From the human T2T-CHM13v2.0 reference genome, Homo sapiens: DNA of 64,000 bases. Each line of letters starts with the position of its first letter. The stretch's first letter is position 1. The position numbers were made by a program, and so were the translations under genes. Shown here one piece after another: positions 57,477 through 57,614 of this stretch. The notes beneath the pieces are model-generated. The model ran no database searches. It was not told the origin of the DNA and saw only the letters and a program-made list of their open reading frames with translations. Where the stretch lies: assembly GCF_009914755.1 (NCBI RefSeq), contig NC_060935.1. The stretch is one strand, 5' to 3'.

Positions 57477-57614
57477 AATAAAGACCATCTTATATTTGCA
57501 GATTCGGGTGCTGTGTTTACATTTGGGAAAAGTAAATTTGCTGAAAGTAATCCTGGTAAATTCTGGTTTAAAAATGATGTCCCTGTACCTCTTTCATGTA
57601 GAGATGAACATTCT
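57477..57614 (+). pseudogene. RPGR: Displaced fragment of the RPGR intron1/exon2 junction (RCC1-like domain N-terminus)
   Basis: After the acceptor TTTGCAG (57495-57501) it translates as [38 protein letters not shown]. The recalled RPGR sequence is [38 protein letters not shown]. Confidence 0.9.

What the first reader, a model, noticed from the sequence alone, without database searches (positions are those of the whole stretch)
57477..57614. RPGR intron1/exon2 fragment carried on the tail of a young L1
Seen: a 138-bp non-repeat segment lies between an L1 poly(A) and a 15-T tract. It encodes [38 protein letters not shown] behind an intact TTTGCAG acceptor. Known (recalled): this is the start of RPGR exon 2 (X-linked retinitis pigmentosa gene), with about 3 residue differences. 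It includes intron-like sequence, stops mid-exon and is antisense to the L1, so it is not an mRNA retrocopy. Inference: this is L1 3' transduction, which implies the source L1 sat antisense inside RPGR exon 2. That could be a gene-breaking allele since lost, or a duplicated RPGR copy. An RNA-level chimera or template switch is the alternative. It could also attract mis-mapped reads or primers in RPGR diagnostics.
Basis: partly seen in the sequence, partly recalled or inferred. Interest (0 to 1): 0.9.

Follow-up and report, generated by a model that had tools for sequence, protein, structure and literature searches.

The report
L1 carrying RPGR and chr7 tags
A dead L1 jumping-gene copy on chromosome 11 drags along two stacked souvenirs, 138 bases of the eye-disease gene RPGR and 890 bases of chromosome 7, which most likely record two earlier stops of its ancestors; it is a neat example of a known process, not a new one.

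Summary
Window 57477-57614 is a 133/138-identical copy of the last 25 nt of RPGR intron 1 plus the first 113 of the 126 nt of exon 2 (chrX). It occurs nowhere else in T2T-CHM13. It lies antisense between an L1 3' end and a T15 tract.

The next 890 nt to the left (56576-57465), which look like an old L1 fragment, are 96.6% identical to two chr7 sites, against 73% or less for other full-length matches. They end in non-templated A's 18-19 nt after an ATTAAA.

The true unit is 56572-61177, on the minus strand:
- a twin-primed, 5'-truncated L1PA of about 3.5 kb
- the RPGR tag, followed by A11-15
- the chr7 tag, followed by a short A run
- a 10-11 bp target-site duplication at a TTTTTT/AA site on both sides

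The best reading (about 0.6) is serial 3' transduction: an L1 antisense in RPGR exon 2, then a daughter on chr7, then this copy. Neither progenitor is present today. The main rival (about 0.2) is a template-switch or RNA chimera for the RPGR tag. Divergence of 2.4-3.6% suggests roughly 10-18 Myr, so the L1 is not very young.

This is a known mechanism and a new instance of modest interest. Diagnostic relevance is minimal.

The parts
56560..56571 (.). Left copy of the target-site duplication (TTAAAATTTTTT) inside an ancient minus-strand L1 that hosts the insertion
   Evidence: Searches give the sequence. One search shows that host-element flanks on both sides align to overlapping positions of an independent L1 copy (L013 3977 on the left, 3983 on the right), so target sequence is duplicated.
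56572..56575 (-). Remnant of the final poly(A) tail (4 T on the + strand beyond the T6 of the TSD). It is not templated at chr7.
   Evidence: T run 56566-56576. chr7 reads ...GACATAG before TAGAGTTG, where the window has T's.
56576..57465 (-). Outer 3' tag: 890 nt copied from chr7 (C7:74077336-74078224 and C7:73745680-73746568). It is itself a piece of an ancient L1 ORF2, antisense to the young L1. The ATTAAA hexamer (minus strand; + 56595-56600) lies 18-19 nt before its end.
   Evidence: the two chr7 places match at 97%; apart from one 53-nt stretch at 81%, every other match is 73% or less; 29 mismatches plus 1 gap in 890, with homology stopping at both T runs.
57466..57476 (-). Poly(A) tail of the inferred intermediate element: 11 non-templated T on the + strand. 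The 4 T at 57462-57465 are shared with chr7, whose site reads TATTTT/GCC.
57477..57614 (-). Inner 3' tag: antisense copy of RPGR. Intron 1's last 25 nt are 57477-57501 and the first 113 of 126 exon-2 nt are 57502-57614. The AATATA hexamer (minus strand; + 57491-57496) lies 14 nt before the end.
57615..59527 (-). L1PA 3' segment (end of ORF2 plus 3' UTR) ending in AATAAAATAAAATAAAATAAAAAA. The last A (57614) overlaps the RPGR homology by 1 nt.
   Evidence: 93.8% to L013 7703-5758; for the 3' end variant.
59528..59534 (.). 7-nt junction between the sense and inverted L1 segments
59535..61177 (+). Inverted 5' segment of the same L1 (ORF2). Its outer end overlaps the start of the sense segment by 13 nt of L1 coordinates (L013 5758-5770), the twin-priming signature.
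   Evidence: 95.6-97.2% to L013 3811-5770 across an Alu present in L013.
61178..61187 (.). Right copy of the target-site duplication (TAAATTTTTT), followed by AAGACTT. The + strand therefore reads TTTTTT/AAG, an L1 endonuclease-type nick site.

Best explanation
The RPGR piece is the inner of two stacked 3' tags on one dead-on-arrival L1 insertion (56572-61177, minus strand). This is serial 3' transduction.

**Step 0 (inferred).** A full-length L1PA sat antisense inside RPGR coding exon 2, 13 nt from the exon's 3' end. Its transcript ran past its own weak poly(A) signal and was cleaved 138 nt downstream, 14 nt after an AAUAUA hexamer, 25 nt into intron 1.

**Step 1 (inferred from the anatomy).** That RNA inserted at a TATTTT/GCC site on chr7, giving a full-length daughter of the form L1 - RPGR tag - poly(A).

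**Step 2 (shown by the anatomy here).** The daughter's transcript read through its poly(A) and 890 nt of chr7 flank. It was cleaved 18-19 nt after an AUUAAA. It then inserted by target-primed reverse transcription with twin priming at a TTTTTT/AAG site in an ancient L1 on chr11, creating a 10-11 bp target-site duplication.

Both progenitors were unfixed alleles that have since been lost. Divergence puts the events very roughly 10-18 Myr ago; the rates behind that figure are recalled.
For: **Inner tag**
- It is unique to RPGR and this site.
- It is followed by A's that RPGR does not encode. RPGR antisense continues TTATAAC there.
- It has an AATATA hexamer 14 nt upstream and a GT-rich stretch downstream in chrX.
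- No AATAAA or ATTAAA hexamer is seen when the 138 nt are read on the tag's antisense strand (sequence). AATATA is therefore the first usable signal after the L1.

**Outer tag**
- 56576-57465 is 97% identical to two chr7 places. Apart from one 53-nt stretch at 81%, all other matches are 73% or less.
- Homology stops exactly at the two T runs. chr7 has TTTT/GCC at the inner boundary, ATTAAA 18-19 nt from the outer boundary, and TGTCTTTGTTGATTTTCTG beyond it.
- An L1 - tag - A(n) - tag - A(n) layout is the described hallmark of serial transduction (review PMC4859970, passages seen).

**One TSD for the whole unit**
- TTAAAATTTTTT and TAAATTTTTT flank the unit at TTTTTT/AAG.
- The host ancient L1 is contiguous across the insertion.

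**Other support**
- Twin-priming anatomy shows a single TPRT event.
- Ages agree: 5/138 for the RPGR tag (2 at CpGs that RPGR keeps), 29/890 for the chr7 tag, and 36/1492 private changes in the L1.
- The L1|RPGR junction is an A run followed by GAAT. The same A-run-then-GAA form is seen at the 3' junction of many ordinary relatives: 9 of 11 copies that share the exact 3' end, this one included, and several of 19 unselected relatives. This fits priming from a ...TTCT-3' nick in RPGR.
- The chr7 site shows that a source of this lineage can be absent today.
Against: - No L1 lies at RPGR exon 2. No L1PA-type element was found in 80 kb around it, only two ancient fragments of 71-73% identity.
- No sibling carries either tag.
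- The inferred nick site in RPGR, TTCT/GC, departs from TTTT/AA on both sides of the nick.
- At most 6 A's separate the L1 body from the RPGR tag. De novo disease insertions listed in PMC4859970 have tails of 64-125 nt. The other two tails of this unit are also short now, at 4 and 11-15.
- An L1 in a coding exon of an X-linked gene should be short-lived. Table 6 of PMC9311842 lists 0 transduction-carrying L1s in coding exons.
- No other primate genome could be searched, so neither the empty site nor the intermediate was observed.
Confidence: 0.6

Rival explanations
1. The inner tag arose by template switching or RNA-level joining. When the intermediate inserted on chr7, reverse transcription began on the poly(A) of an unrelated, polyadenylated antisense RNA from RPGR. 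After 138 nt it switched to the 3' end of the L1 RNA in the same particle, or the two RNAs were ligated beforehand. The full L1 was then copied. No L1 ever sat in RPGR. The outer chr7 tag is still an ordinary transduction.
For: - No L1 is at or near RPGR exon 2.
- The junction has no clear poly(A) of a source element and shows a 1-nt overlap.
- The mid-exon boundary TTCT/GC is a poor endonuclease site.
- L1 reverse transcriptase is known to make chimeric insertions by template switching or after RNA ligation (PMC11838501, passages seen).
Against: - Catalogued chimeras have the L1 3' end at the 3' side and the foreign RNA at the 5' side (PMC11838501). Here the order is reversed, and priming would have to start in trans on a rare RNA.
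- It needs an unannotated antisense transcript that uses a weak AAUAUA site. L1 read-through supplies such a transcript for free.
- The same lineage demonstrably read through once, as the chr7 tag shows.
- The A-run-then-GAA junction type is common at ordinary L1 3' junctions.
Confidence: 0.2
2. The source L1 lay elsewhere on the RPGR antisense strand, in an intron or beyond, and so was harmless. The tag was shortened either by cryptic splicing of the read-through RNA onto the CAG|AATG in antisense exon 2, or by a later internal deletion. The deletion would have removed the source's poly(A) and the sequence between the L1 and mid-exon 2.
For: - It would explain the missing poly(A) at the L1|RPGR junction and the odd mid-exon boundary.
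- On the antisense strand a TACTAAC motif, the complement of the exon-2 donor region, lies 16 nt upstream of the CAGCAG|AATG boundary. This is read from the sequence. That it resembles a branch-point motif is recalled.
Against: - No L1PA-type element lies in the 70 kb on that side of exon 2 in CHM13.
- There is no polypyrimidine tract before the putative acceptor.
- No splice donor can be shown.
- A deletion starting exactly at the end of the L1 would be a coincidence.
Confidence: 0.08
3. Separate events: an L1 inserted first, and short retrocopies of an RPGR antisense RNA and of a chr7 RNA later landed in its poly(A) tail in the same orientation. Their target-site duplications would consist only of A's.
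For: Poly(A)/poly(T) tracts are good L1 endonuclease targets (recalled). Duplications made only of A or T would be invisible.
Against: - It needs two independent insertions, in the same orientation, each exactly at a tail boundary.
- The chr7 tag's inner boundary falls on chr7's own TTTT/GCC. That is expected if an L1 integrated there, and not expected for random 5' truncation of a retrocopy.
- The only recognisable TSD encloses everything.
Confidence: 0.07
4. DNA-level duplication of RPGR or chr7 sequence to chr11.
For: None beyond the sequence similarity itself.
Against: Both homologies end at non-templated A/T runs placed 14 and 18-19 nt after poly(A) hexamers. They do not extend into the flanks. 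The whole unit has a TSD and an endonuclease-type site.
Confidence: 0.01

Closest known systems
Serial (nested) L1 3' transduction, as described by Szak et al. 2003 and summarised in PMC4859970. The Szak paper is not held; it was seen only as reference 246 of the review.
   Same: - An L1 3' end followed by a unique tag, poly(A), a second tag and poly(A).
- Each tag maps to one other locus and ends shortly after a poly(A) hexamer.
- One TSD and an endonuclease-type site enclose the whole unit.
   Different: - The inner tag comes from a coding exon (antisense) of a disease gene.
- Both source elements are absent from the assembly.
- The outer tag is itself an ancient L1 fragment, so repeat annotation would hide it.
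U6/L1-type and mRNA/L1 chimeric insertions made by template switching or RNA ligation (PMC11838501)
   Same: Two unrelated RNA-derived sequences are fused in one TPRT event with one TSD.
   Different: In those chimeras the L1 3' end is the 3' part and the foreign RNA is 5'. Here the foreign pieces are 3' of a complete L1 3' end and each carries its own poly(A).
Twin-primed (5'-inverted) L1 insertions (Ostertag and Kazazian 2001; cited in PMC4859970)
   Same: An inverted 5' segment adjoins a sense 3' segment with a 13-nt overlap of L1 coordinates, and the pair is flanked by a TSD.
   Different: Nothing unusual. This only shows that the chr11 copy was dead on arrival.
Disease-causing L1 insertions in exons of X-linked genes (F8, F9, RPS6KA3; RP2 intron), listed in the table of PMC4859970
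   Same: The inferred step-0 element would be of this kind: an L1 in an exon, antisense, in an X-linked gene.
   Different: Here it is only inferred from a tag carried by a descendant. No such RPGR allele was observed, and 'RPGR' does not occur in that review's main text (0 occurrences).

Membership tests
L1 3' transduction (serial) | Complete L1 3' end followed by non-L1-lineage sequence and then a poly(A) run | tested here: met
   The order is L1 end, 138-nt tag, A15 (11 non-templated), 890-nt tag, then a short A run.
L1 3' transduction (serial) | Each tag maps to a single parental locus elsewhere | tested here: met
   The RPGR tag maps to chrX only. The outer tag maps to two near-identical chr7 duplicates (4/889 differences between them).
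L1 3' transduction (serial) | At the parental locus the tag ends 10-40 nt after a poly(A) hexamer, and the A's that follow are not templated (criterion as in PMC9311842) | tested here: met
   AATATA +14 nt with RPGR continuing TTATAAC. ATTAAA +18-19 nt with chr7 continuing CTATGTC.
L1 3' transduction (serial) | A target-site duplication and endonuclease-type site enclose L1 plus tags | tested here: met
   TTAAAATTTTTT / TAAATTTTTT with TTTTTT/AAG, and a host ancient L1 contiguous across the unit. The TSD is low-complexity and has one A-count difference.
L1 3' transduction (serial) | A source L1 directly upstream of the tag at the parental locus | tested here: not met
   No L1 at RPGR exon 2 and no L1PA in 80 kb. 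The chr7 sites are uninterrupted. This is expected if the sources were unfixed alleles, but it leaves step 0 inferred.
L1 3' transduction (serial) | Sibling insertions sharing a tag | tested here: not met
   No other copy of either tag in CHM13. This feature is supportive rather than required.
Template-switch / RNA-ligation L1 chimera | The foreign RNA forms the 5' part and the L1 3' end with its poly(A) forms the 3' part | tested here: not met
   The order is reversed here. The definition is taken from PMC11838501 passages.
Template-switch / RNA-ligation L1 chimera | The foreign partner is an expressed RNA | not testable with these tools
   No expression or 3'-end data for an antisense RPGR RNA were available.
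Processed pseudogene (mRNA retrocopy) of RPGR | Spliced exons, sense orientation relative to the poly(A), and an end at the mRNA 3' end | tested here: not met
   It keeps 25 nt of intron 1, stops 13 nt before the end of exon 2, and its poly(A) is on the antisense strand.
Twin-primed L1 insertion | Inverted 5' segment whose outer end maps next to, or overlaps, the start of the sense segment | tested here: met
   L013 coordinates 3811-5770 (inverted) against 5758-7703 (sense), a 13-nt overlap. Junction sequence.

The most novel reading that the evidence does not exclude
The RPGR tag did not come from a neighbouring source L1. Instead an L1 particle began reverse transcription in trans on a rare polyadenylated antisense RNA and then switched onto the 3' end of its own L1 RNA. 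That produced a full-length, still competent L1 with a foreign 3' tag, and this L1 went on to retrotranspose (chr7 to chr11). If so, some '3' transductions with no source L1' in genome catalogues would be reverse-order chimeras, and tags could not always be used to locate progenitors.
Probability: 0.2. Interest if true: 0.55.

Novelty: new member of a known kind. Interest (0 to 1): 0.35.

Why it matters
- **A possible fossil allele.** If the main reading is right, this locus preserves a gene-breaking L1 allele of RPGR, the kind that causes X-linked retinitis pigmentosa today, carried by an ape ancestor. It also shows a three-generation chain of a hot L1 lineage in which only the dead last copy survived.
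- **A methodological point.** The outer tag is an ancient L1 fragment. Repeat annotation would call it an unrelated old repeat, so the unit looks like a simple one-tag element. Serial transductions built from repeat-derived flanks are probably under-counted, and insertion boundaries drawn at the first poly(A) can be wrong.
- **Practical relevance.** For RPGR testing it is small: a 138-nt look-alike of exon 2 with 5 mismatches and a 59-nt identical run.

Tried and rejected
- **TSD at the T15.** I looked for a duplication directly flanking T15...L1 (57461 against 61178 onward). Only ATTTTTT matched. I dropped this once the flanks proved to be different sequences and the left flank proved to be chr7-derived.
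- **Target-site deletion.** I first read the left flank as an old resident L1 with a 2-kb target-site deletion. The 97% chr7 match rejected that.
- **Decayed poly(A).** I took the A-rich linker for a decayed source poly(A). It is a heritable 3' end form shared by 320 copies, although it was absent in that exact form from 19 unselected relatives. My argument 'no source tail, hence no transduction' is therefore weak.
- **Fixed source L1 in RPGR.** I searched 80 kb of the RPGR locus for a fixed source L1, which could also have fed a splice model, and found none. A single L1PA copy served as probe, so very old L1s could be missed.
- **Close sibling.** I tested chr20 copy L003, which shares a private C>T and the same tail. 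It is only 95.6% identical over 663 nt, no closer than other relatives.
- **Literature.** The search 'RPGR, transduction, LINE-1, retrotransposition' (1,025 papers hold at least 3 of the 4 terms, 15 listed) and the search 'RPGR, pseudogene, chromosome 11, exon 2' (1 paper, on canine DMD) gave nothing on this locus. Szak et al. 2003 is not held.
- Earlier findings of this scan were not open.
- **Not possible here.** No primate genomes other than this assembly could be searched, so the orthologous empty site was not examined.

Full report
**1. The observation**

On the + strand the window reads T15 (57462-57476), then AATAAAGACC...TTTGCAG|ATTCGGG...GAACATTCT (57477-57614), then the reverse complement of an L1 3' end.

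- That peptide matches PDB chains named X-linked retinitis pigmentosa GTPase regulator (4JHP, 4QAM, 4JHN) at E=1.5e-23, with 35 of 38 residues identical.
- A search of the window's own assembly with 57440-57660 returned 41 matches (40 of 87 candidates scored). Only two cover the 138 nt: the window itself and C23 (chrX):37727005-37727142, minus strand, at 96% identity and E=3e-57. The other 39 match only the L1 end.
- In the chrX locus the segment is the last 25 nt of an intron plus the first 113 nt of a 126-nt exon. That exon ends 13 nt further on at a GT donor. That this is exon 2 of RPGR rests on the PDB names and on recall.
- There are 5 differences. Two are at CpGs that chrX keeps. The longest identical run is 59 nt.

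**2. The L1**

Against a related L1 copy fetched from chr3 (L013), the window maps in two pieces:

| Window | Strand | L013 coordinates | Identity |
|---|---|---|---|
| 57616-59527 | minus | 7703 to 5758 | 93.8% |
| 59535-61177 | plus | 3811 to 5770, across an Alu that sits in L013 | 95.6-97.2% |

- The two segments overlap by 13 nt of L1 coordinates and are joined through 7 nt. This is the twin-priming anatomy, so the copy was 5'-truncated and inverted on arrival.
- The 39 best non-self genome matches to the 3' segment are 93-96% identical. Only 40 of 14,788 candidates were scored.
- Against the majority of 12 other copies, this copy has 36 private differences in 1,492 comparable columns (2.4%). 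The others range from 1.5 to 3.5%.
- It is therefore a mid-aged primate L1PA. L1PA3/4-like is my recollection and was not tested. It is not a very young element.

**3. The A-rich linker**

- The stretch AATAAAATAAAATAAAATAAAAAA between the L1 body and the RPGR piece occurs, with its 5' context, in 320 places at 2 mismatches or fewer (166 forward, 154 reverse; reversed-pattern control 0). Sixteen are exact, including this one.
- In 23 relatives chosen by body similarity only, 19 had the 3' anchor. Their tails are very variable and none has exactly this form.
- It is therefore a heritable tail form of a sub-lineage.
- The pure A run at the junction is 6 long, and its last A overlaps the RPGR homology.
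- Many ordinary copies go from the A run straight into GAA...: 9 of the 11 copies with the exact end, this one included, and several. This is the same junction type as here.

**4. The insertion does not end at the T15**

- The flanks first looked inconsistent. An ancient L1 in + orientation lay on the left and an ancient L1 in minus orientation on the right.
- The minus-strand ancient L1 is in fact one element that stops at 56567 (L013 coordinate 3977) and resumes at 61178 (L013 3983). A short sequence is present on both sides: TTAAAATTTTTT at 56560-56571 and TAAATTTTTT at 61178-61187.
- That predicted that everything between the two copies arrived together.
- The test was a genome search with 56560-57470. 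Window 56576-57465 is 97% identical to C7:74077336-74078224 and to C7:73745680-73746568. Apart from one 53-nt stretch at 81%, all other matches are 73% or less.
- Exact comparison gives 29 mismatches plus 1 gap in 890 nt against either chr7 copy. The chr7 copies differ from each other at 4 of 889 positions here, and are 98.5% alike over 3.9 kb.
- Homology stops at both T runs.
  - At the inner end, chr7 reads ...GTAGTATTTT|GCCTC. Four of the 15 T are therefore chr7 sequence and 11 are not templated.
  - At the outer end, chr7 reads ...GACATAG|TAGAGTTG, where the window has T's.
- On the minus strand an ATTAAA hexamer lies 18-19 nt before the outer end. chr7 continues with a GT-rich stretch.

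**5. Anatomy of the unit (minus strand, 61177 down to 56572)**

1. Inverted L1 segment
2. Sense L1 segment with its 3' end
3. 138-nt RPGR antisense tag
4. A11-15
5. 890-nt chr7 tag
6. About 4 A's
7. The whole is enclosed by a 10-11 bp target-site duplication at a + strand TTTTTT/AAG site

The target-site duplication is low-complexity and differs by one A between its two copies. It is supported by the overlap of both host flanks on an independent L1 copy.

**6. Mechanism**

This layout is the described hallmark of serial 3' transduction. A review states that a transduction carries two homopolymer stretches and the source's 3' TSD, and that serial transductions have been reported (PMC4859970, passages). 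Transduction arises when the weak L1 poly(A) signal is skipped and a downstream one is used. A hexamer within 10-40 nt of the end is the accepted signature (PMC9311842, passages).

*The outer tag.* I regard this tag as settled. An intermediate L1 carrying the RPGR tag and a poly(A) sat at the chr7 TTTT/GCC site. It read through 890 nt and gave rise to the chr11 copy. The chr7 sites are uninterrupted today, so that intermediate was never fixed.

*The inner tag, points in favour of the same mechanism:*
- The A's after the tag are not templated in RPGR.
- An AATATA hexamer lies 14 nt upstream, with GT-rich sequence downstream in chrX.
- Reading the tag's antisense strand shows no AATAAA or ATTAAA within the 138 nt.
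- The junction type is ordinary for this lineage.

*The inner tag, points against:*
- There is no L1 at RPGR exon 2. Within 80 kb there are only two ancient L1 fragments of 71-73% identity. All other hits to the L013 probe were to its Alus.
- No sibling carries the tag.
- The nick site TTCT/GC is non-canonical.
- At most 6 A's sit at the junction. De novo disease insertions listed in the review have tails of 64-125 nt. The unit's other tails are now 4 and 11-15.
- Coding-exon sources are rare a priori. Table 6 of PMC9311842 lists 0 such L1s.

I put serial transduction, including an exon-2 progenitor, at about 0.6.

**7. Rivals**

- **(a) Template switch or RNA joining for the inner tag (about 0.2).** L1 chimeras are well documented, but catalogued ones place the L1 3' end at the 3' side (PMC11838501, passages). 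The order here is the reverse, and an unannotated antisense poly(A) RNA is required.
- **(b) A source L1 elsewhere in RPGR, plus cryptic splicing onto CAG|AATG or a later internal deletion (about 0.08).** A TACTAAC motif lies 16 nt upstream on the antisense strand. There is no donor, no polypyrimidine tract and no L1 in the region.
- **(c) Independent retrocopies landing in the L1 tail (about 0.07).** This is disfavoured because the chr7 boundary falls on chr7's own TTTT/G site and only one TSD is seen.
- **(d) DNA-level duplication (about 0.01).** This is contradicted by the boundaries.

**8. Age**

- The chr7 tag differs by 3.3% from its source, and both are presumably neutral.
- The L1 has 2.4% private changes.
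- The RPGR tag differs by 3.6%, mostly on the chr11 side to judge from the retained CpGs and the coding conservation of RPGR.
- With recalled primate rates of about 0.1-0.17% per Myr per lineage, this gives roughly 10-18 Myr. The estimate is untested because no other primate genome was available.
- The two chr7 copies are much closer to each other than to chr11, so their duplication is younger than the chr11 insertion.

**9. Known or new**

The mechanism is textbook. I found no paper linking RPGR to an L1 transduction or to a chr11 look-alike. 'RPGR' does not occur in the main text of the disease-insertion review. Supplements and the Szak 2003 catalogue could not be checked. The case is a new instance of a known kind.

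Its points of interest are three:
- the coding-exon origin of the inner tag
- the loss of both progenitors

**10. Verdict**

- Interest is modest (0.35).
- Diagnostic relevance is minimal.

Noticed in passing
L033 (C7:74075836-74079724) and L034 (C7:73744180-73748068): The source of the outer tag exists as two copies that are 98.5% alike over 3.9 kb, with 4/889 differences inside the tag. This is a segmental duplication younger than the chr11 insertion. Neither copy holds an L1 at the inferred integration site.
   Followed up: partly
window 54039-56567 and 61178-61951: One ancient minus-strand L1, about 65% identical to an L1PA copy, is split by the 4.6-kb unit. A further ancient minus-strand L1 lies at 62120-62933.
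   Followed up: partly
L027 (C8:96745710-96745747, minus strand): An L1 with the same (TAAAA)3TAAAAAA end is followed by about 31 nt and then an A19 run. This may be another short 3' transduction.
   Followed up: no
genome-wide and L037-L056: 320 L1 copies share the exact tail form AATAAAATAAAATAAAATAAAAAA within 2 mismatches, while 19 unselected close relatives have quite different tails. Tail-proximal microsatellite forms therefore seem to be inherited within a sub-lineage. Among 59 copies with a perfect 37-nt end, the next base is A in 27, G in 16, T in 13 and C in 3.
   Followed up: partly
L002 (chrX), reverse strand about 2975-2915 and 1125-1075: A roughly 55-nt sequence (…AAAGTATAGCTTTTTATTGCTTTGTG…) occurs in both the intron before and the intron after the RPGR exon. 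It is probably a small interspersed repeat.
   Followed up: no
L013 4306-4610 (chr3): The L1PA copy used as a mapping reference carries an Alu insertion in ORF2. This explains the split alignment of the window's inverted segment.
   Followed up: yes
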